Shown piece after piece: positions 1 through 11,389 of a DNA stretch of 11,389 nucleotides. Every line of letters begins with the position of its first letter. Position 1 is the stretch's first letter. The stretch comes from a virus (taxonomy: Duplodnaviria; Heunggongvirae; Uroviricota; Caudoviricetes). The position numbers were made by a program, and so were the translations under genes. The notes beneath the pieces were generated by a model that was not told where the DNA came from, did no database searches, and saw only the letters and a list, made by a program, of their open reading frames with translations. Location: IMG/VR virus record IMGVR_UViG_3300029167_000082; one strand, written 5' to 3'.

Positions 1-642
1 TCATTCTTCACCCACCAATTCATCCAGTTCAGCCAGCGTCAGAGGCTTTGGTACAGGCTTGTCGATATCGCCCATAATGCGCTGGAAGTTTCTGGCGGGC
101 ATATGGTTACGGTTCTCCAGTATTTTCGCCAGCGCGATAACATCCCACCATTTCAGGGTAATCAGCGCCTGAGCGCGGGAAAGGGATATTCGCTGTATAT
201 CGGCGTCCTCCCCACCAGCTACCCGGTATACCTCGGATAAATCACGAACATTTTTCATATCTGCTTTCCCGGACGTTTCCATCAGTGCGTCAATATCATC
301 CTCCGTATAGCGTGATTGCGCGACGATACCAGCCAGAGAGATAACCATAGCCCGGCATACCTGGTCTATCAGACGTAACCTGGTGTCATCATTCGAGAGG
401 GTGTAAGACTTAACCTCAGCCACATTCCGTGGATAGTTGGCGTGCCATACCGCGACAGCTCCACATTCATCAACATCGCCGCTAAGGTAGGTTTTTGCCA
501 CTCGGTTATTACCCGATAACGCAATTTCTACCTCCTGTATGCCGAAAAACCATGCGGCTATCGCATGACCTGCTTCATGTATTGCAAGATGTCTGGGCCA
601 GCGATAGCTGCCGAACTCAATAATGATGGGTTGCGTACTCAT
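1..642 (-). CDS. FtsH-like (M41-type) zinc metallopeptidase-domain protein, 213 aa
   Basis: ORF-track frame 1..720. HEAGHAIAAW (HExxH zinc-binding motif, identical to the FtsH HEAGHA core) lies 19 aa from the proposed start. Start placed at ATG 640..642 (MSTQPIII) because GAGAGGGAAG lies just upstream and it leaves a 10-nt gap after the SSB stop. TGA stop occupies 1..3, so the CDS is complete at the window edge. Confidence 0.7.
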   Translation of the reverse strand: MSTQPIIIEFGSYRWPRHLAIHEAGHAIAAWFFGIQEVEIALSGNNRVAKTYLSGDVDECGAVAVWHANYPRNVAEVKSYTLSNDDTRLRLIDQVCRAMVISLAGIVAQSRYTEDDIDALMETSGKADMKNVRDLSEVYRVAGGEDADIQRISLSRAQALITLKWWDVIALAKILENRNHMPARNFQRIMGDIDKPVPKPLTLAELDELVGEE

Positions 643-652
643 ATCTTCCCTC

Positions 653-1087
653 TCAGAATGGCGTTTCATCGTCGAATGGTGGGCGTTGGTCGTATTCATC
701 ACGGGATGGCTGCTGCGCACGTCTCAGCGCGTCCGTTGCCTGTCCCCGCTGTCCTGCCTTCCCGCCGGGGCGTACCGTTCTGGCGCTGATCACACTGTCG
801 GCTACTACCTGATACCCCTGCTGTGTACCGCCGTCCTGCCCTGTCCACTGGTTGAGTTGCATATTGCCTGCCACGCTCACAAGGTCGCCTTTCTGGTGCT
901 TCGCCAGCGCATCGGCCTGCTTCCCAAAAGCAATAACGCCCAGCCAGAAGGTTGACTCTCCCGCCTCTGCCGCATTACAGGGGAGAGACACCGCCAGCCG
1001 CGCCATAGCCATGTTGTTACCGTTCGTTGTGGTGCGGGTCTGGGGATCTGCCACCAGCCGCCCGTATGCTGAAATTTGTGCTGTCAT
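653..1087 (-). CDS. ssb: Single-stranded DNA-binding protein (SSB-like), 144 aa
   Basis: OB-fold-like pattern (GRLVADPQ..R.T..G, W..V.AFGK.A, KGDLVSV.G, Y.VVAD.V), a Gly/Gln-rich linker and an acidic C-terminal tail DDETPF resembling the SSB DDDIPF tip. GAGGAA RBS 8 nt upstream of the ATG. Start overlaps the stop of the upstream gene (ATGA). Confidence 0.8.
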   Translation of the reverse strand: MTAQISAYGRLVADPQTRTTTNGNNMAMARLAVSLPCNAAEAGESTFWLGVIAFGKQADALAKHQKGDLVSVAGNMQLNQWTGQDGGTQQGYQVVADSVISARTVRPGGKAGQRGQATDALRRAQQPSRDEYDQRPPFDDETPF

Positions 1088-1386
1088 AGATATTTCCTCA
1101 TGTAGTCACTACCTCCGGGGCTAATTTTCATTTCTTCCCTTAAAGGCCACTGCTCCGCCATTGCTGCGGTCGAGTGATTCCCGTCATCACGTCCGGCCTG
1201 TGCCGCCGTCCAGTGTGTTGCATATTCTGTAAATCCAATTTCTGCTGGCTGCCTCATCCAGTGGGCGATCATCCTCAAGGTCATTTGCAGGCTTTGGGTG
1301 TCGCCCTGTAATGCGCGTTTGTCAGTAAACCCCTTCAATGCTTCACGCTCCTGATAGGTCATTTTCTGGCTGGTTTCTGTATTCAT
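1084..1386 (-). CDS. Hypothetical protein, 100 aa
   Basis: ORF-track frame 1084..1449. Start chosen at ATG 1384..1386 (MNTETSQ) because GAAGGTGG lies 5 nt upstream. Stop overlaps the ssb start, suggesting translational coupling. No motif recognised. Confidence 0.55.
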   Translation of the reverse strand: MNTETSQKMTYQEREALKGFTDKRALQGDTQSLQMTLRMIAHWMRQPAEIGFTEYATHWTAAQAGRDDGNHSTAAMAEQWPLREEMKISPGGSDYMRKYL

Positions 1387-1437
1387 TGCCCACCTTCGTT
1401 TTAAGCTACCCCCCATAGAATCTTTTTGGGGGTGTAA

Positions 1438-1684
1438 TATCCCTACCAATCCCTACTAACTGGCTCAGGCCACGAATGGCAAGGCTTTCAGACTGGTAGG
1501 CATTCAATTTTGTTGCCCTACATAACCCTACTTATCCCTACTAAATCACTTCAACGGCATTTTACTGCCTGTTTTATTTGGTAGGGATATGTAGGGATAA
1601 GTAGGGATAAAAATATATATCCCTACCTAGTTTAAAGCCTTGCTACGTCTGGCCTCGTCTCGTTTTTAGTAGGGCAGTAGGGAT
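1438..1684. repeat. Iteron array (CCCTAC / GTAGGG hexamer core, unit roughly TATCCCTAC) with an AT-rich stretch; putative origin of replication
   Basis: CCCTAC on plus at 1441, 1451, 1516, 1526, 1536, 1621; its complement GTAGGG at 1581, 1591, 1601, 1669, 1677. Three clusters have exact 10-bp phasing. AAAATATATAT at 1610..1620. Lies directly downstream of the primase-helicase gene. Confidence 0.65.
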
Positions 1685-1703
1685 AAGTGCCGCCGTAAAA
1701 GTT

Positions 1704-4145
1704 TCAATCATCACTCTGCCCGCTCTCCACACCGTAAGCGCGTGGCATGAACTCCTCAGCCTTCTCGTTATAGCCAACGTTGGTTTGCGCTCTGCCGTTA
1801 ATGCTTCTCGTCAGGTAGCTGGCTCGGTACTCTTTTGCTGCTGATTTTATGGCGCGTGAAAACTTATTGACGGAAAGCGGTTTACCCAAACCGTGATACT
1901 CCATAAACGCCAGATAAAGATGATAAAGATACGTCCTAGGCTCTGGCTGGCCTGCCCATGTACCTCCGCCCATCATCATGCCTTTGGGTTCGTTCATGAA
2001 AAAAAGTGCCGCACACATATCGATAACCGGATCTGTGCCGCGTTTAACGTCTAGCGCCTCCTGAGAATCGCGCTGCTCAAGTAATAGTGACTTTGCTTTG
2101 TTCTGGTCGGCAAAGGTGGTTAGCAGGTGGCGGATAATCACCGGGATTTCTCGCCTGATTTTTGCGGTTAAATCCGGGTCTTTGTCTGCGTCTGATACCG
2201 GGTTATTAAACGGGAATATCACGCGGCGGCGGGCAATGCCCCCGTTTCGCTCCGTGAATGTCATCGGCTCGTTATTGGTTGCCATAACAACGGCATTTAT
2301 CACGGTTGTGAACTGCTTTTCATATTTCCCATCAATCTCTACCGGATCGCCGCCCGTAATGGCTTTAATCCCCGCACCCTCTCCAACATAGCGGGTCTGG
2401 TCAGGCATAATAATCAGGCTTTTTCCTACGAACTGCGCCCGTCCCCGTGCGGTGTCCAGCGTCATCATGCTACCGCTGGCGGTGTTGTGTTCACCTGCCA
2501 GCGTGGTTGCTATGCTGCTGAATACGGATTTCCCACTACCGCCCTCGCCAGTTATCTCAATGAATAGCTGCCAGTCGTGACGCTTCGCCAGCACCATAAA
2601 CAAGGCTGCTTTGATACGCTCGGCCTTATGATGGTCGCCAGCCGTTGCATGATTCAGCCAACGGGTAAAATTGGGGGCGCTGGTGGTAATATTTTCCCCC
2701 GGCGCTGGCGGGGTGTAGGTGATCCCATTGTGGTTCATCAGCCAGTTACCCGGCGAATGGGCGGAAAACGTCTGCGTAGCGAGGTCATAAACGCCGTTAT
2801 CAAAACCAATCAGATCCCCGCTCCGCTCACCAATTACCGGTATTTGCAGCTTCATGGTTGCGACAACCGATTTAATCCCCTTTTCGGTGTAGTGGGCTTC
2901 GTGCTCGTCGAAAATTGCCACCATAACCCTTTCTAATTCGCTGTCTGGTAGCTTCACCCATACGCCAGATTCGTAGCAGTAAACAGTGCCACTATCAGGG
3001 TTAACCGCCAACATATCCCATCGAGATGAAAGCAACCGCGCTTTCTGGCTGGCTGCCATTTGTGCAATATCTCCGACATCGGCTTTACGGCGGGATTTAC
3101 CGCCCTCAATGGCTTGCAATCGCGGTTTCACGGCTTCCCCTTGAATCTGGTACATCGAATCGTTAAACGCAGCCGTAGCGACTTCCAGCCCGTTTTGCTG
3201 GCGGTAGTCGTCCCAGTCGGCTTTGTAGTCTGTCGGCGGCAGTGCCACCCAGCCAGCCACGGATAAGGCGGCTTTCTCTGCGGCATCTTTGCCCGTGTTC
3301 GCCTGTTCGTCCTGCTGGTGGTCGTTATCTGCGGCAATGATAATCTGCGTGGCTGGATATATCCGGCGCATCACTTCGGCAACGGGTAGCAGGTTGCCCG
3401 CGTCAATTGCTGCCACTGCCAGCGCGTCCGGGCGCATCAGGTGAACTGAAAGGGCCGTCGCCAGCCCCTCGGCAATTAAAACGCTCTGCGGCGATTCTGG
3501 CGCGTTTACGGCGTGATATGCCCCGCGCTTTGCTGAACCTGTCAGGAGTCGCTTCTCTCCCTGCGGTGTAATGGTTTGCGCTGCTGCCACTGCGCCGGAT
3601 TCGTCCACCAGCTCCAGCAATAACGAACCATCCGGCATAACCGGATAGTTAAACCCGGTCAGCCCTTTTGATTGCAGGTAATCAGATTCGCCCTGTGTGG
3701 CACTCTGGCGCATTCCGGCATACAGATGGGCAAACGTAGCCCTTCGCTGCTCTGCGTCATCTGCTGCCTGTTGCTGGCGCTCCTGCTCACGCTGCTGGCG
3801 GTCAGCTTCCAGTTGCTCCCTTCTCTGGCTCGCTGCCGCCGGGTCGGTTTGCGCTGCCCGGTAATCAATACCCAGCACATCAGCGGCAAGCTGTGCCGCC
3901 TCTGTGGTGTCGCAGTTGTTCACCTTCTTAATCAGGTCTAAGCCGTCGCCCGCGCCGCATTGGTTACAGATAAAGCTACCGCGACCGTTGTCGTCGAACC
4001 GGAAGCGATCCGTACCGCCACATGCAGGGCAGGGGGCATGACGGCGTGATGAATCAGGCACGTCGATAGACAGGCCAGCCAGCACATAAGGCCAGCGCCC
4101 TGCTGCGGCGCTGGTCACTTCGCGGATAAGGTCGATATTACGCAT
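1704..4145 (-). CDS. P4 alpha-type bifunctional DNA primase / helicase (zinc-binding N-terminus, TOPRIM primase, P-loop NTPase/helicase), about 813 aa
   Basis: ORF-track frame 1704..4178. N-terminal CPACGG...CNQCG zinc-finger-like motif; TOPRIM-like IAEGLATALS and IIAADNDHQ; Walker A GEGGSGKS. Start placed at ATG 4143..4145 (MRNIDLI) because AGGAGG lies 5 nt upstream; the alternative ATG at 4176..4178 lacks an RBS. Confidence 0.85.
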   Translation of the reverse strand: MRNIDLIREVTSAAAGRWPYVLAGLSIDVPDSSRRHAPCPACGGTDRFRFDDNGRGSFICNQCGAGDGLDLIKKVNNCDTTEAAQLAADVLGIDYRAAQTDPAAASQRREQLEADRQQREQERQQQAADDAEQRRATFAHLYAGMRQSATQGESDYLQSKGLTGFNYPVMPDGSLLLELVDESGAVAAAQTITPQGEKRLLTGSAKRGAYHAVNAPESPQSVLIAEGLATALSVHLMRPDALAVAAIDAGNLLPVAEVMRRIYPATQIIIAADNDHQQDEQANTGKDAAEKAALSVAGWVALPPTDYKADWDDYRQQNGLEVATAAFNDSMYQIQGEAVKPRLQAIEGGKSRRKADVGDIAQMAASQKARLLSSRWDMLAVNPDSGTVYCYESGVWVKLPDSELERVMVAIFDEHEAHYTEKGIKSVVATMKLQIPVIGERSGDLIGFDNGVYDLATQTFSAHSPGNWLMNHNGITYTPPAPGENITTSAPNFTRWLNHATAGDHHKAERIKAALFMVLAKRHDWQLFIEITGEGGSGKSVFSSIATTLAGEHNTASGSMMTLDTARGRAQFVGKSLIIMPDQTRYVGEGAGIKAITGGDPVEIDGKYEKQFTTVINAVVMATNNEPMTFTERNGGIARRRVIFPFNNPVSDADKDPDLTAKIRREIPVIIRHLLTTFADQNKAKSLLLEQRDSQEALDVKRGTDPVIDMCAALFFMNEPKGMMMGGGTWAGQPEPRTYLYHLYLAFMEYHGLGKPLSVNKFSRAIKSAAKEYRASYLTRSINGRAQTNVGYNEKAEEFMPRAYGVESGQSDD

Positions 4146-4479
4146 GGTTGCCTCCTGCCACGGTCGCGCCCATATCATTAATCATGCTTTGCCATATCTC
4201 GCGCCCGGTATCAGTCAGGCCACCAGCATTGACGCATTTCTCCAGCATGGTGATCCCGATGCTTTCCCACTGAGGGTATGTCTCTTTGAGTGCTTCGAGC
4301 GCGTAACCATCAATAAGTTGGCGCGTGCCACTGATACCGCCCACCAGTTCCACACGGATTTGCTGGCCTGCCGCGTCAACCATGAAGTAATTGCCACCAT
4401 TGATAGCCGTGATGTGGTTGTAAAGTGCCGCCGCGTACTGGTTCGCCAGCGCATTCAGTCGGAAGTTTTTGGTAATCAT
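4138..4479 (-). CDS. Hypothetical protein, 113 aa
   Basis: ORF-track ORF. GAGGGGG RBS 5 nt upstream of the ATG. Its 3' end overlaps the primase start by 8 nt. No motif recognised. Confidence 0.55.
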   Translation of the reverse strand: MITKNFRLNALANQYAAALYNHITAINGGNYFMVDAAGQQIRVELVGGISGTRQLIDGYALEALKETYPQWESIGITMLEKCVNAGGLTDTGREIWQSMINDMGATVAGGNHA

Positions 4480-4488
4480 GTCGCCCCC

Positions 4489-5115
4489 TCAGTGCGCCGC
4501 TGGCATTTCAGGCCAGCCGTTTTCATCCAGATCAGCAATGAAGTGATCGTGTAGCTCTGCCAGCGTTTCACGTCCGAACGGGGTCAGCTCGCCGCGCTCC
4601 GTATCCAGCATGGCGCGGTAGAACACAATGGCGTTCTCTGTTCCCTGCTCAACGCCGTAGCGCTCAATCATTGCGCCCTCGATGTTGTTCGCCATCGCCA
4701 GCCGTTCAGCAAACGGGTAAACCACCATGCCCGCATTACCATTGGAGTAAATCGCCACCTGCGATGATGTGCCGTCAGCCTCAGTAACCGTGGTGGTGCC
4801 GTTCTCGCGCTTCATCTCAGAAACGAACGTCGCAGCAATCAGCCAGCGCCACATAGTGACGTTATGCTGCGCGGTGAAGTCGAACCAGCCACGCTCCCCG
4901 CCGTCAGCCACTGCCAGATGCAGGGTAAATCCTTCATCAGGGATGTCGTCATACCTGCCGCTATCGAGATGAGTTACCGCGTCTGAATAGGGAACAAGGC
5001 AAACATGCTCATACATCCCGGCATCATTGCGGGTCATGATATTGACGCCGTGCGGTGTGGCTTCGGCGTGGAACAGGTCGGGATTTCCCGGTTTAATGGT
5101 CAGTATATTGCTCAT
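4489..5115 (-). CDS. Hypothetical protein, 208 aa
   Basis: ORF-track ORF. GGGAGGG RBS about 7 nt upstream. Start overlaps the stop of the upstream 73-aa gene (ATGA). No motif recognised. Confidence 0.6.
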   Translation of the reverse strand: MSNILTIKPGNPDLFHAEATPHGVNIMTRNDAGMYEHVCLVPYSDAVTHLDSGRYDDIPDEGFTLHLAVADGGERGWFDFTAQHNVTMWRWLIAATFVSEMKRENGTTTVTEADGTSSQVAIYSNGNAGMVVYPFAERLAMANNIEGAMIERYGVEQGTENAIVFYRAMLDTERGELTPFGRETLAELHDHFIADLDENGWPEMPAAH

Positions 5116-5509: not shown

Positions 5510-5703
5510 CGCTTCCCCTCCCGTTCTGCCAATTCTTCAATCAGCCATGCGGTAACGTCACCGGAAAGGCGCTTTAGCGGAGTGGCGATTGCGGATACTT
5601 CGCTATCGGCAAGGTGATGGGGGAAGTCTTCAACCAGACGGGCAATTATTTCAGTCTGGTGCGCGCGTTCTGCGGCCTGCTCTAAGGTGAGTTCACGGCT
5701 CAT
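5506..5703 (-). CDS. Small hypothetical protein, 65 aa
   Basis: ORF-track ORF. GGAGGTGG RBS 5 nt upstream. ATGA overlap with the Icd-like gene stop. No motif recognised. Confidence 0.5.
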   Translation of the reverse strand: MSRELTLEQAAERAHQTEIIARLVEDFPHHLADSEVSAIATPLKRLSGDVTAWLIEELAEREGKR

Positions 5704-5888
5704 GCTGCCACCTCCAGACGGATGCGGCCTGCAAAGAAACAGACGTGATCTCGTGCCAGAGTTTGACGTGCTTCGCGCTCGCTTTCGGCAGCAACATGAT
5801 GGATTTTGGCGGTAATTGTCGGCATGTCGCGGCGAACGGCTGCGATTAACCAGATAAATTGTGGATTTTGGGTAGGGGTAGTAGCCAT
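5700..5888 (-). CDS. Small protein, 62 aa, possibly Icd-like (host cell division inhibitor family as annotated in P4-like islands)
   Basis: C-terminal 62 codons of ORF-track frame 5700..6578. Internal ATG at 5886..5888 (MATTPTQNPQF) is preceded by a strong AAGGAGG RBS. The Icd-like assignment is from recalled resemblance only and is not verified. Confidence 0.5.
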   Translation of the reverse strand: MATTPTQNPQFIWLIAAVRRDMPTITAKIHHVAAESEREARQTLARDHVCFFAGRIRLEVAA

Positions 5889-6077
5889 GATGGCAGCCTC
5901 CTTTGTGTTTAAGGAGTCACCGCCTGAGTTTCCACGCTCTGAAATGGCGGTGACGTTAGCAGGGGTGGAAATACCGGACACAAAGGAAACCGGCCTACGC
6001 GAACGTAGCCCCACTAACGCCACCATAGATACAGTACGGACGAGGCCGCTGATTTGATGTGCGTAGTGAACGGACAC

Positions 6078-6100
6078 AAAAAAAGACGCTTTCGGCGTCT
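6078..6100 (-). terminator. Rho-independent terminator inside the non-coding control region
   Basis: Minus-strand RNA reads AGACGC-CGAAA-GCGUCU followed by six U: stem 6084..6089 / 6095..6100, loop 6090..6094, A-run on plus at 6078..6083. Lies about 190 nt upstream of the Icd-like start. Confidence 0.6.
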
Positions 6101-6155
6101 GTGTCGCCCTGAGTGTGTTCGGGTTTCCACGCCCGGTTGCTGATTTTGCAGCAAC
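6078..6155 (-). ncRNA. Candidate ~75-80 nt small RNA (possible P4 CI / P1 c4-type immunity RNA analogue)
   Basis: Extended -10-like TGTTATAGT on the minus strand (hexamer at plus 6162..6167) about 7 nt upstream of a run that folds as hairpin 6136..6155 (GTTGCTG / CAGCAAC), hairpin 6120..6135 (CGGG-TTTCCACG-CCCG) and the terminator hairpin. Prediction by eye only. Confidence 0.3.
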
Positions 6156-6516
6156 ACTGGGACTATAACACTGATTTTCCTGCTGGTGGTCTGACCTGTA
6201 GGTACTGCCCTTTTTTACATAGTCCGAAAACTCCCCAGACGGGCGCGTAATGCTCCGAAAACTCAAGACAGCGGAATAATTTTCCACTGGCGTAGTGTTG
6301 TCAGAAAAAACTTTCTCGCGCGTACTGGTCACGAAATGCGAAAAAAACTTAGGATTTATTAGGATTCGCAGCCCAATTCTCAGCCCAGAAAACGCCTCTA
6401 AAATGTCGTCATTTGTCGCAACGGCGCGGCGATGAATGTCAGGTTTTGACAGGTTGTAAGGGTTAACATTTGCTAACAGGCCAGCCAGATTAAAGGCTTC
6501 TTTCTGGGCGGCAGGT

Positions 6517-6699
6517 TCATTCAGTATCACGGCGCACCTCCACGAACTCATTAACGAATCTCTCCAAAGGCTGAACACATGGCGACTGATAGCCCTCGCG
6601 GTAAAAGGTCACTCGGTTATGCTCGACGCGCTCAACGGTCACTACAGCCCCGTGAGAATCCTTGTAACGGCTTCCCGGCTGGGGGTTTTGGTTACGCAT
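6517..6699 (-). CDS. Small hypothetical protein, 60 aa
   Basis: ORF-track ORF. Its start overlaps the antirepressor stop by 8 nt, so it is the last gene of the alpA-led operon. No motif recognised. Confidence 0.5.
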   Translation of the reverse strand: MRNQNPQPGSRYKDSHGAVVTVERVEHNRVTFYREGYQSPCVQPLERFVNEFVEVRRDTE

Positions 6700-7525
6700 G
6701 GCTTACCCTCATACGCTTCGCCAGCCAGCGCTGAGACAGTCGTATTAATTCAGCTTTGCGCTGGTCGTAGTCCTGCCCCAGCTCAATTAGCGTGATATTG
6801 GTGCTTTCCAGATAGGAGAGGTGTTCAAGCTGTGCTGCGTTCATGCTGTCCCGTGGTTCGCCAGTAATGCCATTTGCCTGCGCCCACTGCTTTGCCGTCA
6901 TGCCACCCAGCACGATACGGGCGATCATGTTGCTCTCGTTGCTGTAGTGGCGCTGCTGCGTCGTTTTACCCAGCTCGGCACGGGCCATATTCAGCGCATC
7001 GCACATTGGCTTAAAGTTGTTTGCGGCACTGATACGGGCTTTTAGCTGGCGACGATAGCGGGCGGCGATTTCAGGCACGGTACGCTGTAATTCTTCCTCG
7101 CACTGGATGAAATAACGGCGGATAGCGCGACCCTGATCATTGCGTTCGATCATTGCCAGTTCTTTCGCCATTCCGACACTTAACAGATAGTCTTTGCCGG
7201 GTCTGCCAGAGTGCTTTATCTTGCTGTAAGCCGCGCCATTCGGGCTTTTCCCCAAATTTGGGGAAATTGTTTTATGGACTGAGTAATCGTGCCCAATGGT
7301 GAAGTCATATTCAGAGATGCGATCAGTGATCCATGTAGAGAAGTCTTTTCCCACGCCCAACGCTTTGTGTAACGCTTTTGCGCTAACAATATTGGTTTCA
7401 CGCCCACCGATATGACCAGGAATAACCGGGACAATTGCGGCAAATTCATTACCGTTAATTGTGCCCAGAGAGGCGTTCAGATGAGGGGCGGCCTCAGAAA
7501 TTAATCTGCTTTTTTCGATGTTCAT
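6692..7525 (-). CDS. Phage antirepressor-type protein (AntA / Bro-N-like N-terminus, KilAC-like C-terminus), 277 aa
   Basis: ORF-track ORF. N-terminal region (FAAIVPVIPGH...ETNIVSAKALHKALGVGKDFSTWITDRI) resembles antirepressor N-domains, and the C-terminal helical region resembles KilAC. GGAGAC RBS upstream. Confidence 0.65.
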   Translation of the reverse strand: MNIEKSRLISEAAPHLNASLGTINGNEFAAIVPVIPGHIGGRETNIVSAKALHKALGVGKDFSTWITDRISEYDFTIGHDYSVHKTISPNLGKSPNGAAYSKIKHSGRPGKDYLLSVGMAKELAMIERNDQGRAIRRYFIQCEEELQRTVPEIAARYRRQLKARISAANNFKPMCDALNMARAELGKTTQQRHYSNESNMIARIVLGGMTAKQWAQANGITGEPRDSMNAAQLEHLSYLESTNITLIELGQDYDQRKAELIRLSQRWLAKRMRVSHA

Positions 7526-7537
7526 TTTCAGTCTCCG

Positions 7538-7969
7538 TTAGGCGGCGTTAAACGCGTTCGGGTAGAGTTTCAGAATGTCGGCAATTTCCTGCTGAGAAAG
7601 TCCGTTGTGATCATTTATGTTCGCAAGATGGTTAACATGAGTGATCACTTTCAGAACATCACCACGGCAGGAGAAACGGTAGCGAAGGTGTGTTCCGATA
7701 CCATCAGGATTCTTTTCGTCGATACGCTCCAGAGTGATTCCAAGCTGGCGTTCTAACTCTGTTGCATAGTTACGACCAGAAGACAGACGGCAGTAGCGAA
7801 GAATGTCATTTTCTGTCCATCCCTCTATACCAGTACGCAGCATATAGACTCTGGCACGATGCTTTTTCGGTGTGCGCTTTGGTGCTTGAAGGGATTTTGT
7901 CAGGGGCGTAACATCAGATACGCGAATATCTGAATTAGCCGCCTGTAATGGGCGGTTTTTCTTTTCCAT
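7538..7969 (-). CDS. Hypothetical protein, 143 aa, translationally coupled to alpA
   Basis: ORF-track ORF. Start ATG 7967..7969 overlaps the alpA stop (ATGA). Basic N-terminus (KRTPKKHRAR); no motif recognised. Confidence 0.55.
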   Translation of the reverse strand: MEKKNRPLQAANSDIRVSDVTPLTKSLQAPKRTPKKHRARVYMLRTGIEGWTENDILRYCRLSSGRNYATELERQLGITLERIDEKNPDGIGTHLRYRFSCRGDVLKVITHVNHLANINDHNGLSQQEIADILKLYPNAFNAA

Positions 7970-8172
7970 CAGGCCACCTTCCCGCGGCGTTCTGCCAGCC
8001 AGTTGTGAATCTCAACCGCATCAAACGCAGTTATTTTTTCTCCCAGCTTTACCGGACGTGGTAGTGAACCGTTTCTTACTTTACGGTCGATGGTGGATAC
8101 ACTAACGCCCAGCAATTCAGCCAGGCGGAAGCGTCTGATATAGCCTTTTGTAGGAATAGTGTCGGTGTTCAT
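7969..8172 (-). CDS. alpA: AlpA-family phage transcriptional regulator / excisionase-like HTH protein, 67 aa
   Basis: Size and pattern match the AlpA family (RLAELLGVSVSTIDRKVRNGSLPRPVKLGEKITAFDAVEIHNWLAER). First gene of the operon after the orphan-gene terminator. Confidence 0.8.
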   Translation of the reverse strand: MNTDTIPTKGYIRRFRLAELLGVSVSTIDRKVRNGSLPRPVKLGEKITAFDAVEIHNWLAERRGKVA

Positions 8173-8286: not shown

Positions 8287-9252
8287 CTACCCCTTACCGT
8301 TGGCGGCAGCACGTAAGTGTCTCAAAATCACATCTTCATTTGTGATTGCTAACGGTGGAATTTCGTCTTTATGAGCCACTATGCAATCCCGCCACTTCTC
8401 AGGGCTTATTTCTTTCTTTTTGCCACGGCATTCATCAGGATACTTTGACAAAAGATATATTGCAGATTTGAAAAGTTTTTCCCTGTTTTCAGCATGTCTC
8501 TCGGCATTATGGTTGCTATTTTTTATTTCAGGTATTAGTTCCTGTTCTACCGCCATTTCGTATCGTTTTTTGCTCTTAGCTGCGTCAAAACTTCCATTAA
8601 CCTTTGCGTCATGAAGGTATTCTAAATCAGCCTTTGTTATATAAATGTTTTTATCTGACAGGCTACTCAGGTGAATTTGGGAACTTTGCATTTTGAATTT
8701 ATATAGATCACAATCAAATGTTGCTTCAAGTCGCACATATGGTTCTCCACATTCTTGTGAATGATAATGTCGTGTTGTTCTACCGCGTACACGCAACAAT
8801 CCACATGCAATTGATTTTCTTACAATAAAAGAGTTTTTGCCAATTTGTTCAAAAACATTTTTATTGTCGCTGTCTTCAACTGTCAGTGGTTTATGTGCAT
8901 AAAATAGCTCATAAGCACCGCTTTCAGATGCTGGGATATAAACTTCGTTGCTTGCGCTGGTAATAAGAAAAGGAAATGTAAACCTTACTTCTTCTGGGTA
9001 CATAAGTAATAAATCAGTTATAAAATTAGCATCTTTTTTGAAGTGGATGGTGGCATCAGATTCAATGAAATCAAGAAAGTCAGCATAGACATAAAAGTCT
9101 ATATGTAGTCTATCTTTCCAATGCCATATATCATCAATTTCACAATTTAATAATTTTGATGCTCGCTCTATCGTGCAGTAGTCCAAAGGTGGAATACCTG
9201 ATTCCTGCCATAAATTTCTATGCACCACTGTTGTTTCATGAGAGTCGTTCAT
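8287..9252 (-). CDS. Hypothetical protein, 321 aa; AT-rich orphan gene in the integrase-adjacent slot
   Basis: ORF-track ORF. AAAGGTGA RBS 6 nt upstream. Hand-counted 60-nt samples give about 32-38% GC against about 53% in a primase sample. Own terminator downstream. No catalytic motif recognised by eye. Confidence 0.75.
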   Translation of the reverse strand: MNDSHETTVVHRNLWQESGIPPLDYCTIERASKLLNCEIDDIWHWKDRLHIDFYVYADFLDFIESDATIHFKKDANFITDLLLMYPEEVRFTFPFLITSASNEVYIPASESGAYELFYAHKPLTVEDSDNKNVFEQIGKNSFIVRKSIACGLLRVRGRTTRHYHSQECGEPYVRLEATFDCDLYKFKMQSSQIHLSSLSDKNIYITKADLEYLHDAKVNGSFDAAKSKKRYEMAVEQELIPEIKNSNHNAERHAENREKLFKSAIYLLSKYPDECRGKKKEISPEKWRDCIVAHKDEIPPLAITNEDVILRHLRAAANGKG

Positions 9253-9347
9253 TGCGTCACCTTTTACGCTGCGCCTTATTTTGTGATTGAGCCAGGCGGT
9301 AAGGCTTCCCGCTTTTCGCCCCGTCGAGCTAGGCTCAATCTATTCAG

Positions 9348-10607
9348 TTAGTTCGCCCTTCTGAGAGGCGTTACGTTGTAGTCTTTTCCGCTTTCCAGTG
9401 CCACCAGCAGATCAGCCCACTGTGCCAGTGCTGCTTTACGCTCATCAAAATACTGATGGCGGTTATAAATCCCCTCTACGCCCTTAATGCGATGATTGAG
9501 GCATCGTTCCGCCACGACAGGATCAACACCCAACGCTGCTAAATGAGTACGTGCGGTGCGTCGGAAGTCGTGAATCGTGAAATTAGGCACATCCGGCATT
9601 TCGGCGCGAACCTTAGCCAGTGCTACGGGCAAAGTGCTTTCCTGAATATGTGGGATCATTCTGTTTTGCATCTTCCTGGCTGGAAGCACCCATGCGCTAT
9701 TACATGAAAAGGTGTGTAGCTCTCTCAACCATTCAACGGCTGGGGAAGGTAGAGGTATATCAATAGGGTCTCCGTTTTTGCTGCGTTCTTCCGGCAAATG
9801 CCATACCGCACCATCTAAATCAAACTCTTCCCATCGTGCGGCGCATAACTCCATCTTACGAACGCATAGTGCCAGCAATAGCTTAAATGTCAGTTCGTTC
9901 TGGCGGCTGAATCCTTTTGCGGTGCGCATAGCCTCGAATAGCCTGATAAGCTCATCGCGAGTTAGCCAACGGTCGCGGGAAACCTCTTTACCACCAGCAT
10001 CAGATACTTCAAACGCTGAACAAGGGTTTATCTCCAGAGCGTGGCGTTTTATCCCGTAGTCAAAGATACGGCGTGTCCAGCGTAATACATCTGTTGCTAT
10101 CGTTGGTGCTCCTCGGTCAACGATACCTTTCAACATGTCGTCAATGTGGCGTGGCTTAACGTCCTCTACCTTCATATGCCCAATGCAGGGGTTAATATCC
10201 TTATCAATTCTCCGGCGAAGGATATCGGGATGTTTCCATCTCGGAAGTATCTGGCGCTCGAAGTATTCGGAGGCCAGATCTGAAACACGCATGGCGTTTT
10301 TCTCAGCCTCCATTTTTGCCAGTGCTTCAGCTTTTCGTTCCTGTTTCTCTGCTGCTACGTCATAGCCAAGAGCAACTCTGGCTGACAGCTCTTTTGCTGT
10401 TTCTCTGGCTTTTGATAGTGACAGTTCGGAGTAAGAGCCTATAACCATAGCCCGCTGCTTTCCTGCGAGCTTATAGCGGAATCGCCAGAACGGGGCTGTG
10501 TAGTTTTTGGGGTAGCAAATATAAAGGCCGTTGCCGTCTGCCTTGCCATCAAATCTGTCTCCCGCCTTTATCCATGCGCGGATCTGCATATCTGTGAGTT
10601 TTGGCAT
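9348..10607 (-). CDS. int: P4-family tyrosine recombinase / integrase, 419 aa
   Basis: ORF-track frame 9348..10691. N-terminus MPKLTD..I.AWIK....DGK.DGNGLYI...WRFRYK matches the P4-type arm-binding domain. C-terminal catalytic region has HDFRRTARTHLAALG and GIYNRHQY (candidate catalytic Tyr). Start chosen at ATG 10605..10607 by homology pattern; the upstream ATG at 10691 lacks an RBS. Confidence 0.9.
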   Translation of the reverse strand: MPKLTDMQIRAWIKAGDRFDGKADGNGLYICYPKNYTAPFWRFRYKLAGKQRAMVIGSYSELSLSKARETAKELSARVALGYDVAAEKQERKAEALAKMEAEKNAMRVSDLASEYFERQILPRWKHPDILRRRIDKDINPCIGHMKVEDVKPRHIDDMLKGIVDRGAPTIATDVLRWTRRIFDYGIKRHALEINPCSAFEVSDAGGKEVSRDRWLTRDELIRLFEAMRTAKGFSRQNELTFKLLLALCVRKMELCAARWEEFDLDGAVWHLPEERSKNGDPIDIPLPSPAVEWLRELHTFSCNSAWVLPARKMQNRMIPHIQESTLPVALAKVRAEMPDVPNFTIHDFRRTARTHLAALGVDPVVAERCLNHRIKGVEGIYNRHQYFDERKAALAQWADLLVALESGKDYNVTPLRRAN

Positions 10608-10635
10608 TGCGAATACCTGAATATCGAATATGGGT

Positions 10636-10688
10636 GTGTACATAAAGCAATGTACATGAAAGTCATTATGTACACCTCTATGTACACG
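10636..10688 (+). repeat. Four direct repeats of (A)TGTACA(T/C) upstream of int; candidate integrase arm-type or regulator binding sites
   Basis: TGTACAT at 10637 and 10651, TGTACAC at 10669 and 10681, all within about 50 bp between the int start and the yicC terminator. One more TGTACAT at 8226..8232 upstream of alpA. Confidence 0.45.
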
Positions 10689-10732
10689 CATATTGTGCGC
10701 TTTATTGCGTCGTTATGATAGCTCATGATAAC

Positions 10733-10795: not shown

Positions 10796-11389
10796 TTATT
10801 CGATATTCTGAATCTGCTCGCGCATCTGCTCAATCAACACTTTCAGCTCAATCGCGGAGTTTGTCACTTCGGCATTGATAGACTTCGACGCAAGAGTGTT
10901 CGACTCGCGGTTGAACTCCTGCATCATAAAGTCCAGACGACGACCAACGGCTTCTTTTTTCTTCAGAATGTTGTACGTCTCTTTAACATGCGCTTCGAGG
11001 CGGTCCAGTTCTTCGGCAACGTCAATTCGTTGTGCCAGCAGAACCAACTCCTGCTCCAGACGGTTGTTTTCCAACTGAACCTGAGCATCTTCCAGCTTCG
11101 CGACCAAGCGTTCACGCTGCCATTGCAGGATTTCCGGCATATGGGAGCGGACTTTGACCACTTCGGCGGTGACGCCTTCCAGACGCTGCTCGATCAATGC
11201 TTTCAGTGCCTGACCTTCGGTTTCGCGCGCGACAATAAAGTCGTCCAGCGTACCATCCAGCGCCGCGAGAATTTCAGCGGCAATGGCGTCAAGATCCTGC
11301 TCCTGGGCTGCCATCACGCCCGGCCAGCGTAGAATATCAACCGGGTTGATTTCCCCTTCGTCCCTCTGCATTTTTACCCAGTTCGCGGC
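10796..11389 (-). CDS. yicC: C-terminal part of YicC-family protein (chromosomal gene, 5' end beyond the window)
   Basis: Minus-strand frame stays open to the window edge and ends ...IEQMREQIQNIE at the stop 10796..10798. Recognised from memory as the YicC C-terminus. The Met at 11371 in the ORF track is internal. Confidence 0.75.
   Translation of the reverse strand, partial: AANWVKMQRDEGEINPVDILRWPGVMAAQEQDLDAIAAEILAALDGTLDDFIVARETEGQALKALIEQRLEGVTAEVVKVRSHMPEILQWQRERLVAKLEDAQVQLENNRLEQELVLLAQRIDVAEELDRLEAHVKETYNILKKKEAVGRRLDFMMQEFNRESNTLASKSINAEVTNSAIELKVLIEQMREQIQNIE

What the first reader, a model, noticed from the sequence alone, without database searches (positions are those of the whole stretch)
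1438..1684. Phased iteron array downstream of the primase-helicase: likely origin of the element
At least eleven copies of a CCCTAC/GTAGGG core in both orientations, three clusters with exact 10-bp spacing, and an AT-rich stretch lie in the 317-bp gap immediately after the alpha-type primase-helicase gene. In P4 the origin sits downstream of alpha and is bound by the C-terminal domain of alpha through iterons. The repeat sequence here differs from the P4 type I iteron (TGTTCACC) as I recall it, suggesting a distinct replicon specificity.
Basis: partly seen in the sequence, partly recalled or inferred. Interest (0 to 1): 0.55.

Follow-up and report, generated by a model that had tools for sequence, protein, structure and literature searches.

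The report
Replication origin of a satellite island
The repeat array is real and is almost certainly the replication origin of a phage-satellite island (PICI) in the E. coli chromosome, built like a published, tested origin but with its own repeat sequence, so it is a new member of a known kind.

Summary
There are eleven exact CCCTAC cores and one degenerate copy (GCCTAC) in 1441-1682. The whole window holds 12, against 2.9 expected. They fill the 317-bp gap after a P4-alpha-type primase-helicase gene (1704-4178, minus strand).

The twelve sites form a ~260-bp imperfect palindrome centred near 1561. The pattern is →→←→→→ | AT-rich spacer | ←←←→←←, with six sites in each half.

The same layout lies after the Pri-Rep gene of EcCICFT073, whose ori was shown experimentally to support replication. 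It also recurs in many of the 80 related loci scanned from Enterobacterales, Aeromonas and other taxa, each with its own hexamer.

[quoted passage not shown] It follows neither the helicase nor the primase part. Natural domain swaps show this.

The best reading is a PICI-type ori, bound and melted by the element's own self-loading primase-helicase. One P4 detail is wrong: crr, not ori, lies downstream of alpha. Nothing was tested experimentally here.

Verdict: new member of a known kind, of modest interest.

The parts
1704..4178 (-). P4-alpha-type primase-helicase (Pri-Rep) gene. It encodes a Zn-ribbon, a TOPRIM primase domain, a D5_N/DUF5906 SF3 helicase and a C-terminal Pox_D5-like domain. 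RefSeq places the start at 4145.
   Evidence: Pfam domains. 38.7% identity to P4 alpha over 97% of its length. Annotated 'phage/plasmid primase, P4 family' in an identical E. coli island.
1758..2036 (-). Codons for residues 715-807, the C-terminal winged-helix origin-binding domain. This is the proposed iteron reader.
   Evidence: phmmer match to PDB 1KA8, the P4 alpha origin-binding domain, at E 3e-8. This segment predicts iteron group with AUC 0.94, against 0.76 for the helicase part. The columns that track iteron type best are residue 797 and the segment 791-800.
1438..1685 (.). The whole iteron array, the proposed ori: 12 sites of TATCCCTAC arranged as an imperfect palindrome centred near 1561.
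1581..1685 (-). Primase-proximal half-origin with six sites, in the pattern →→←→→→ on the gene-sense strand. Cores: 1677-1682, 1669-1674, 1621-1626 (inverted), 1601-1606, 1591-1596, 1581-1586.
1607..1620 (.). 14-bp tract made only of A and T, between site 3 and sites 4-6. It is a candidate unwinding point.
   Evidence: The least stable 15-bp duplex of the window starts at 1606. An AT-rich stretch at the same position is visible in the related arrays shown.
1542..1580 (.). Central 39-bp spacer between the two convergent triplets. It contains the dyad centre (~1561) and is the AT-rich region flanked by the two iteron sets.
   Evidence: The 100-bp window starting at 1519 is in the 99th percentile of low stability.
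1438..1541 (-). Distal half-origin with six sites, in the pattern ←←←→←← on the gene-sense strand. Cores: 1536-1541, 1526-1531, 1516-1521, 1496-1501 (degenerate GCCTAC, opposite orientation), 1451-1456, 1441-1446.
1634..1655 (-). Conserved non-iteron element AGGCCAGACGTAGCAAGGCTTT in the spacer between sites 2 and 3. Its function is unknown.
   Evidence: Related AAGCC-N11-GGCTT elements occur at this position in L009, L010, L073, L011, L013 and L054. Its mirror copy lies at 1467-1488.
1467..1488 (-). Mirror copy of that element (AAAGCCTTGCCATTCGTGGCCT), between site 10 and sites 11-12.
   Evidence: Present as CTGAAAGCCGCGCCATTACTGG in EcCICFT073, L005, L066 and L073, which have different iterons. 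It aligns with the reverse complement of 1634-1655.
1409..1432 (-). C-run/G-run inverted repeat (CCCCCAAAAAGATTCTATGGGGGG) between the last iterons and the next gene. Its function is unknown.
   Evidence: Similar CCCC..AAAACTTTT..GGGGGGTA elements lie at the same place in several loci with different iteron types.
1084..1386 (-). Small ORF (100 aa, no Pfam match) directly after the ori.
   Evidence: A small hypothetical gene sits at the same position in EcCICFT073 and in the K. pneumoniae plasmid island.
653..1087 (-). Island-encoded single-stranded DNA-binding protein, part of the conserved primase-ori-SSB module.
   Evidence: Pfam SSB at 5.6e-17. 58-61% identical to the SSBs of EcCICFT073 and EcCIRM13514, in the same gene order.

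Best explanation
The array is the vegetative replication origin of a PICI-type phage satellite. The satellite sits between yicC and dinD in the E. coli chromosome.

Proposed mechanism (inferred). After induction, the island's primase-helicase is made. Its C-terminal winged-helix domains recognise the 9-bp iteron TATCCCTAC. [quoted passage not shown] The duplex would open at the AT-rich tracts. The SF3 helicases would load themselves without DnaA, DnaB or DnaC. The N-terminal TOPRIM primase would prime synthesis, and the neighbouring island SSB would coat the strands.

Shown here: the repeats, their symmetry and low duplex stability; the homology of the protein and of its C-terminal domain; the identity of architecture with a tested origin; and the co-variation of iteron with the winged-helix domain.

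Inferred, not shown: binding, melting, one hexamer per half-origin, and independence from host initiators. The last two rest on the P4 alpha and SaPI Rep literature.
For: (1) Enrichment, phasing and dyad symmetry of the repeats.
(2) Position directly 3' of a full-length P4-alpha homologue whose residues 715-807 match the P4 origin-binding domain 1KA8.
(3) EcCICFT073: its pri-ori segment drives plasmid replication, and deleting the ori impairs it (PMC6092414). Its gap shows a near-identical >><>>><<><< pattern (11 exact cores), the same CTGAAAGCC..GCCATT element and the same primase-ori-small ORF-SSB order. Its Pri-Rep is 54.6% identical to residues 371-811.
(4) 31 of 75 related loci carry at least 7 copies of one hexamer in the 300 bp after the stop codon, against 4 of 1261 background segments. 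At least nine hexamer types were seen.
(5) Iteron group tracks winged-helix identity (AUC 0.94) better than helicase identity (0.76).
(6) Natural domain swaps. L012 has a helicase 81% identical to the window but a winged helix only 35% identical, and it carries P4-type TGTTCACC iterons. L012 and L023 have helicases 66% identical and winged helices 90% identical, and share the same iteron. L002 has an N-terminal primase 93% identical to the window but an unrelated C-terminal half, and its iterons are GTTGGTTCA.
(7) L011 shows the change CCCTAC to CTCTAC in most of its copies.
(8) Iteron cores are invariant in 46 of 72 columns against 75 of 228 for other columns among four CCCTAC-type loci (Fisher p 4e-6).
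(9) The least stable 15-bp duplex of the window lies inside the array.
(10) No DnaA-box (up to 1 mismatch) or IHF consensus lies in the gap. This fits a self-loading initiator.
(11) SaPI Reps bind 6-12 iterons just downstream of rep through a C-terminal winged helix, around an AT-rich centre (PMC9371898).
Against: There is no experimental test of this sequence. The spacer between sites 2 and 3 is not AT-rich here, unlike in EcCICFT073. The co-variation statistics are not corrected for phylogeny. Iteron groups were assigned by me from exact hexamer counts, and 52 loci with clear groups were used. Many Xenorhabdus loci have only 3-5 exact copies. Both AlphaFold models of the C-terminal domain have low confidence (pLDDT 61 and 55). 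For poxvirus D5/E5-like helicases, a role of the homologous winged helix in origin binding could not be shown (PMC12137749). The array could also serve in regulation or copy control.
Confidence: 0.85

Rival explanations
1. A crr-like cis-acting replication enhancer rather than the initiation site. As in P4, the protein would bind here while synthesis starts at a separate ori elsewhere in the element.
For: In P4, the iteron cluster directly downstream of alpha is crr, and the annotated origin is 4.5 kb away. The protein here is a full-length alpha homologue.
Against: The motif occurs only in this array plus one stray copy in the whole 24-kb locus, so there is no second cluster for the protein to bind. 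In the homologous EcCICFT073, pri plus the adjacent region is enough for replication. P4 crr consists of two direct 120-bp repeats with 5 sites each, whereas here there are two inverted units with 6 sites each.
Confidence: 0.05
2. An operator array only. The primase-helicase or another regulator would bind the repeats to control transcription of the downstream small ORF-SSB operon, or read-through from the primase gene, with no origin role.
For: The array lies between two co-oriented genes, and no terminator was found. Iterons of plasmid origins are known to double as operators (general knowledge).
Against: No sigma-70-like promoter was found in 1300-1800. Twelve sites with dyad symmetry around AT-rich DNA, and co-variation with the origin-binding domain of a helicase, are not expected of a simple operator. 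The homologous region in EcCICFT073 functions as an ori.
Confidence: 0.03
3. A real but inactive origin: the island is a decaying remnant and the array no longer fires.
For: Related remnants exist. A Salmonella plasmid copy has a truncated primase and an internally deleted array. The identical ECONIH4 island carries an IS insertion.
Against: In this window the primase-helicase ORF is full length with all domains. All 12 sites and both half-origins are intact. The gap is found at 95-100% identity in 77 E. coli genomes, and the CCCTAC-type array is also present in islands of other genera. Iteron cores are more conserved than spacers.
Confidence: 0.05
4. A partition, incompatibility or handcuffing site, or a packaging signal, rather than an origin.
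For: Repeat arrays bound by a cognate protein also serve as centromere-like or copy-control sites in plasmids (general knowledge).
Against: No par genes or terminase genes are adjacent. The repeats co-vary with the helicase's own DNA-binding domain. In this family the cos sites are separate sequences (PMC6092414, supplementary Fig. S5).
Confidence: 0.02

Closest known systems
EcCICFT073 ori (Gram-negative PICI origin; Fillol-Salom et al. 2018, ISME J, PMC6092414)
   Same: It lies immediately 3' of a P4-family Pri-Rep gene and is followed by a small ORF and an SSB gene. It shows the same >><>>> | <<><< site pattern (11 exact cores), the same conserved CTGAAAGCC..GCCATT spacer element and the same C-run/G-run repeat at the distal end. 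Its Pri-Rep C-terminal half is 54.6% identical. [quoted passage not shown]
   Different: The iteron core is TCTACC there and CCCTAC here. Its Pri-Rep has a different, shorter N-terminal part (584 aa against 824 aa; only window residues 371-811 align). Its spacer between sites 2 and 3 is AT-rich, whereas here it carries an AGGCC..GGCTT element. Its att site is ycfD-phoQ, not yicC-dinD. Its integrase is only 25% identical.
EcCIRM13514 (PICI listed at yicC-dinD in Table S1 of PMC6092414)
   Same: Same chromosomal att site. The integrase is 90% identical, AlpA 67% and SSB 61%. It has the full 12-site >><>>><<<><< array after its primase.
   Different: Its iterons are the P4 type, TGTTCACC. Its primase C-terminal half is 47% identical and its N-terminus differs. 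These are two islands at one att site with different replicon specificities.
SaPI origins and Rep / PriRep proteins (Staphylococcus aureus pathogenicity islands)
   Same: Six to twelve short (5-6 nt) iterons lie just downstream of rep, half on each side of an AT-rich centre, with sites pointing in opposite directions. They are read by a winged helix in the C-terminal domain of a self-loading SF3 helicase (PMC9371898). Window residues 399-660 match the primase chain 7OLA at E 4e-11.
   Different: The host lineage is Gram-positive and sequence similarity is only distant. The primase type is different, and the iterons are unrelated in sequence.
Satellite phage P4: alpha protein, ori and crr
   Same: The primase-helicase is a full-length homologue (38.7% identity) with a homologous origin-binding domain. 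An iteron cluster in both orientations lies directly downstream of the gene. The island also has a C4/CI-type antisense RNA, an Icd-like gene, an AlpA/Vis-like regulator and an integrase.
   Different: P4 has two clusters 4.5 kb apart (ori and crr), and crr is two direct 120-bp repeats of 5 sites. The P4 iteron is TGTTCACC, with no cluster of it here. No gene is annotated as sid, delta or psu in the window or in the full locus.

Membership tests
PICI-type replication origin (SaPI / EcCI) | Located immediately 3' of the replication initiator (pri-rep) gene | tested here: met
   The array starts 19 bp after the primase-helicase stop codon and fills the 317-bp gap.
PICI-type replication origin (SaPI / EcCI) | [quoted passage not shown] | tested here: met
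   There are six sites on each side of the 39-bp central spacer, with convergent triplets. The array includes the window's least stable 15-bp duplex. The criteria come from PMC6092414 and PMC9371898.
PICI-type replication origin (SaPI / EcCI) | Initiator is an SF3 helicase with a C-terminal winged-helix DNA-binding domain whose specificity matches the iterons | tested here: met
   D5_N/DUF5906/Pox_D5 domains. Match to 1KA8 at E 3e-8. Iteron type co-varies with this domain. Binding itself was not tested.
PICI-type replication origin (SaPI / EcCI) | The segment supports initiator-dependent autonomous replication | not testable with these tools
   Shown only for the homologous EcCICFT073 segment (PMC6092414).
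Gram-negative PICI (element level) | Integrase, AlpA-type regulator, unidirectional transcription and a PICI-specific att site | tested here: met
   The integrase, the HTH (AlpA-like, 67% identical to EcCIRM13514 AlpA), AntA, the primase and SSB are all on the minus strand. yicC-dinD is listed as a PICI att site. The window has GAGCAGATTCAG at 10808-10819, against the published core GAGCAGATTCAA.
Gram-negative PICI (element level) | Helper-phage induction and packaging into phage particles | not testable with these tools
   No experiment was possible. No match to the gap was found in the phage records.
P4 ori/crr system | Type I iteron TGTTCACC | tested here: not met
   No cluster is present. 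There are 11 scattered matches at up to 1 mismatch against 8 expected, and none is in the gap. The P4 sites were read from X51522.
P4 ori/crr system | Bipartite cis elements: ori plus a distant crr made of two direct 120-bp repeats | tested here: not met
   There is a single cluster in the whole 24-kb locus, made of two inverted ~125-bp units.
P4 ori/crr system | Alpha-type primase-helicase with a C-terminal origin-binding domain | tested here: met
   38.7% identity over 97% of the protein, and the 1KA8 match.
Plasmid iteron origins (pSC101, R6K, F, P1 type) | Directly repeated 17-22-bp iterons bound by a RepA-family initiator, with DnaA boxes and host helicase loading | tested here: not met
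   The sites here are 9-bp units in both orientations. No DnaA box at up to 1 mismatch and no IHF consensus lies in the gap. The initiator is a primase-helicase, not a RepA-type protein.

The most novel reading that the evidence does not exclude
The origin may be a 'two times six' template. Each half-origin's six iterons, in the fixed pattern →→←→→→, would dock the six winged-helix domains of one hexamer, so that a double hexamer assembles around the AT-rich centre.

Specificity may be set largely by the wing of the winged helix, with residue 797 as a main determinant: A or S goes with CCCTAC, T with CTCTACC, and R or K with ATCTACC.

Shuffling of this roughly 100-residue module, together with its cognate array, between otherwise similar helicases would generate many mutually compatible satellite replicons. 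These could include different replicons at the same att site.
Probability: 0.35. Interest if true: 0.5.

Novelty: new member of a known kind. Interest (0 to 1): 0.3.

Why it matters
It locates the origin of an island found in 77 of 5426 complete E. coli genomes, and also in islands of other genera and on a K. pneumoniae plasmid. It gives a ready set of natural specificity variants: at least nine iteron types on one fixed 12-site scaffold, with natural domain swaps. These could be used to work out how a self-loading primase-helicase reads its origin, and how co-resident satellites avoid replicon cross-talk. For annotation, it shows that this intergenic gap should be labelled rep_origin. It does not change the current understanding of PICI replication.

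Tried and rejected
- Promoter and terminator scan of 1300-1800: nothing found.
- Rfam at gathering thresholds: no RNA family in the gap; the hits lie elsewhere in the island.
- tRNA scan: none found.
- DnaA-box, IHF and P4-iteron searches: nothing in the gap.
- blastn of the gap against phage records: no match.
- AlphaFold of residues 700-824, alone and with a 17-sequence alignment: low confidence (pLDDT 61 and 55). Only the secondary-structure order was used, and no fold search was run.
- The search for homologous proteins with the C-terminal domain returned only 23 proteins, mostly fragments.
- The published att core GAGCAGATTCAA is present only with one mismatch.
- Rejected readings: REP-like or chance repeats (enrichment, and co-variation with the protein); integrase arm sites (mid-element position); a DnaA-dependent plasmid-type origin.
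- I could not see Fig. 2a of PMC6092414, so I cannot say whether a CCCTAC-type iteron is drawn there. The strings CCCTAC and GTAGGG are absent from its supplements.

Full report
**1. What is in the sequence**

All long ORFs of the window lie on the minus strand:
- an integrase (9348-10691);
- an AlpA-like HTH regulator (7969-8172);
- an AntA-family protein (6692-7525);
- an Icd-like region;
- an 824-aa primase-helicase (1704-4178) with Zn-ribbon, TOPRIM, D5_N, DUF5906 and Pox_D5 domains;
- a 317-bp gap (1387-1703);
- a 100-aa ORF (1084-1386);
- an SSB gene (653-1087).

In the gap, the hexamer CCCTAC/GTAGGG occurs 11 times. The whole window holds 12, against 2.9 expected, and 0 of 200 shuffles reach 12. 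The extended consensus is TATCCCTAC, and a twelfth, degenerate site (GCCTAC) lies at 1496-1501.

Read on the gene-sense strand, the sites run →→←→→→, then a 39-bp spacer, then ←←←→←←. The two halves are 76% identical as inverted copies, and 67% identical outside the iteron cores. The alignment score is 41, against a largest shuffled score of 13. The dyad centre is near 1561. The least stable 15-bp duplex of the whole window starts at 1606, and the 40-bp window at 1597 is the second least stable.

**2. Where it comes from**

The gap is 100% identical to a stretch of the E. coli ECONIH4 chromosome. There it lies in an island between yicC and dinD. The gap is present at 95% identity or more in 77 of 5426 complete E. 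coli genomes, always on the chromosome.

Table S1 of Fillol-Salom et al. 2018 lists a phage-inducible chromosomal island, EcCIRM13514, at yicC-dinD. Its integrase is 90% identical to the one here. The island also carries a C4-type antisense RNA, isrK and an int-alpA RNA. The element is therefore a Gram-negative PICI with P4-like replication and immunity parts.

**3. The protein**

The primase-helicase is a full-length homologue of P4 alpha, at 38.7% identity over 97% of its length. Residues 715-807 match PDB 1KA8, the P4 alpha origin-binding winged-helix domain, at E 3e-8. Residues 399-660 match the primase chain 7OLA.

The gene is mosaic:
- Residues 12-362 are 93% identical to the N-terminus of a TOPRIM+DUF927 protein in another E. 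coli island (L002), whose C-terminal half is unrelated.
- Residues 371-811 are 55% identical to a shorter primase in a third island (L005).

**4. Comparison with the tested origin**

In EcCICFT073, the pri-rep gene plus the adjacent 3' region supports plasmid replication, and deleting the ori impairs it. [quoted passage not shown]

I read that region from CFT073. It has:
- the same site pattern, >><>>><<><< (11 exact cores);
- the same non-iteron element, CTGAAAGCCGCGCCATTACTGG;
- the same C-run/G-run repeat at the distal end;
- the same gene order, primase, ori, small ORF, SSB.

Its iteron core, however, is TCTACC. EcCIRM13514, at the same att site as this island, has the complete 12-site pattern with the P4 iteron TGTTCACC.

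**5. Family-wide test**

A scan of one genome per species, using an alignment of the C-terminal half of the protein, returned 80 loci at 98-47% identity. They come from Enterobacterales, Aeromonas and other taxa.

In 31 of 75 usable loci, one hexamer occurs at least 7 times in the 300 bp after the stop codon. The same holds for only 4 of 1261 background segments. At least nine hexamer types appear:
- CCCTAC;
- (C)TCTACC or ATCTACC;
- TGTTCAC;
- GTGTTCAT;
- GTCACT;
- TGGAAG;
- GGTATAC;
- TGTCTAC;
- a longer CTATACATC in Xenorhabdus.

In the arrays with many exact copies that I mapped, they sit on broadly the same scaffold.

Across 52 loci with clear groups, sharing an iteron type is predicted by identity in the winged-helix segment (AUC 0.94) much better than by identity in the helicase segment (AUC 0.76).

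Natural swaps make the point directly:
- L012 has a helicase 81% identical to the window but a winged helix only 35% identical. It carries TGTTCACC iterons.
- L012 and L023 have helicases 66% identical and winged helices 90% identical. They share the same iteron.
- L002 has a near-identical primase domain but a different C-terminal half. Its iterons are GTTGGTTCA.
- L011, with a winged helix 81% identical to the window, shows the one-base change CCCTAC to CTCTAC in most of its copies.

Among four CCCTAC-type loci, iteron cores are invariant in 46 of 72 columns, against 75 of 228 for other columns (Fisher p 4e-6).

These statistics are not corrected for phylogeny. I assigned the groups myself from hexamer counts.

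**6. Which residues**

Of all 454 aligned columns, the one that best tracks iteron subgroup is residue 797 (adjusted mutual information 0.73):
- A or S goes with CCCTAC;
- T goes with CTCTACC;
- R or K goes with ATCTACC.

The best 10-residue window is 791-800, followed by 771-780. L056 and L058 differ at only five residues in this domain, including the equivalents of 794 and 797, yet have different iterons.

A low-confidence AlphaFold model (pLDDT 55) places 770-784 in a helix and 785-803 in a beta hairpin with its tip at 794-795. That is the helix-plus-wing order of a winged helix. I treat this mapping as a lead only.

**7. Mechanism**

By analogy with SaPI Reps, the best-supported reading is as follows (PMC9371898). 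SaPI Reps use a C-terminal winged helix to read 6-12 short iterons just after rep, around an AT-rich centre. They self-load, probably as two hexamers.
- The island's own primase-helicase binds the 12 sites.
- It melts the AT-rich DNA.
- It loads itself and primes synthesis.

Six sites per half-origin would match the six winged helices of one hexamer. This is my inference and was not tested.

The gap has no DnaA box (up to 1 mismatch) and no IHF consensus. That fits host-initiator independence, which is known for P4 alpha from the literature and was not tested here.

**8.

In the P4 record, crr (4291-4590; two direct 120-bp repeats with five TGTTCACC-type sites each) follows alpha. The annotated origin is at 9086-9809. 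This island has no second cluster. It therefore fails the defining bipartite feature of P4 and fits the PICI-type single ori.

**9. Rivals**

I considered four alternatives and rate all of them low, for the reasons given in the rival section:
- a crr-like enhancer;
- a pure operator array;
- an inactive relic;
- a partition or packaging site.

A secondary role in regulation or copy control cannot be excluded.

**10. Verdict**

The feature is a new specificity variant within a published origin architecture, so it is a new member of a known kind. Interest is modest. The added value is the clean 12-site dyad scaffold and the set of natural winged-helix and iteron swaps, which make the recognition code testable.

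Noticed in passing
window 5943-6168 (-): Rfam matches above gathering score: C4 antisense RNA (5943-6030, 81 bits), isrK (6079-6155, 72 bits) and the c4 a1/b1 target (6116-6168). They lie inside the mechanically called 292-aa ORF 5700-6578, which RefSeq annotates as 'Icd-like'. The long ORF is probably over-called, and this is probably a P1/P4-type antisense-RNA immunity module upstream of icd.
   Followed up: partly
window 9273-9339 (-): Rfam int-alpA RNA (60.6 bits) lies just downstream of the integrase gene.
   Followed up: no
window 8287-9252 (-): A 321-aa ORF with no Pfam match sits in a markedly low-GC stretch (0.33-0.37, against about 0.5 elsewhere) between the integrase and the AlpA-like gene. 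It is probably accessory cargo. In strain ECONIH4 an ISSpu7-family IS is inserted next to it.
   Followed up: no
window 1704-4178 (-), junction near residues 362-371: The primase-helicase is a recombinant. Residues 12-362 are 93% identical to the N-terminus of a TOPRIM+DUF927 protein (L002) whose C-terminal half is unrelated. Residues 371-811 are 55% identical to shorter 'DNA primase family' proteins (L005, EcCICFT073).
   Followed up: yes
window 1634-1655 and 1467-1488; 1409-1432: Conserved non-iteron elements lie inside the ori. One is a mirrored pair of AAGCC-N11-GGC(TT)-like elements. The other is a CCCCC..GGGGGG inverted repeat just before the next gene. They persist in several loci whose iterons differ. 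Their function is unknown; a host-factor site or a structural element is possible.
   Followed up: partly
L056 (Pseudocitrobacter faecalis) vs L058 (Escherichia sp. ESNIH1), 300 bp after the primase stop: Their helicases are 99% identical and their winged-helix domains 96% identical (five differences, at window-equivalent residues 735, 749, 794, 797 and 814). Yet the iterons differ: GGTATACAC in L056 and ATGAACAC in L058. This is a near-minimal natural specificity switch.
   Followed up: partly
L089 (K. pneumoniae plasmid pVA126-339) 6002-6292; L090 (Salmonella plasmid pLG26p2) about 5900-6186: The same kind of island, with 11 CCCTAC sites and the same RSINGRAQTN wing segment, sits on a 339-kb Klebsiella plasmid. 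Salmonella conjugative plasmids carry a remnant with a truncated primase (only the DNA-binding domain) and an internally deleted array.
   Followed up: partly
L010 (CACSKA010000009.1, labelled Chryseobacterium sp. 18061): A 280-kb contig labelled as a Bacteroidota genome encodes a primase C-terminal half 85% identical to this enterobacterial one, followed by a CCCTAC array. Contamination or mislabelling of that assembly seems likely.
   Followed up: no
window 1-720 (-): A 239-aa ORF with no Pfam match carries an HEAGH (HExxH-type) motif, which suggests a zinc metallopeptidase. It is annotated as hypothetical in RefSeq.
   Followed up: no
window 10808-10819 (-): GAGCAGATTCAG lies inside the 3' end of yicC. 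It is one mismatch from the att core GAGCAGATTCAA published for EcCIRM13514, so it is the probable island boundary.
   Followed up: partly
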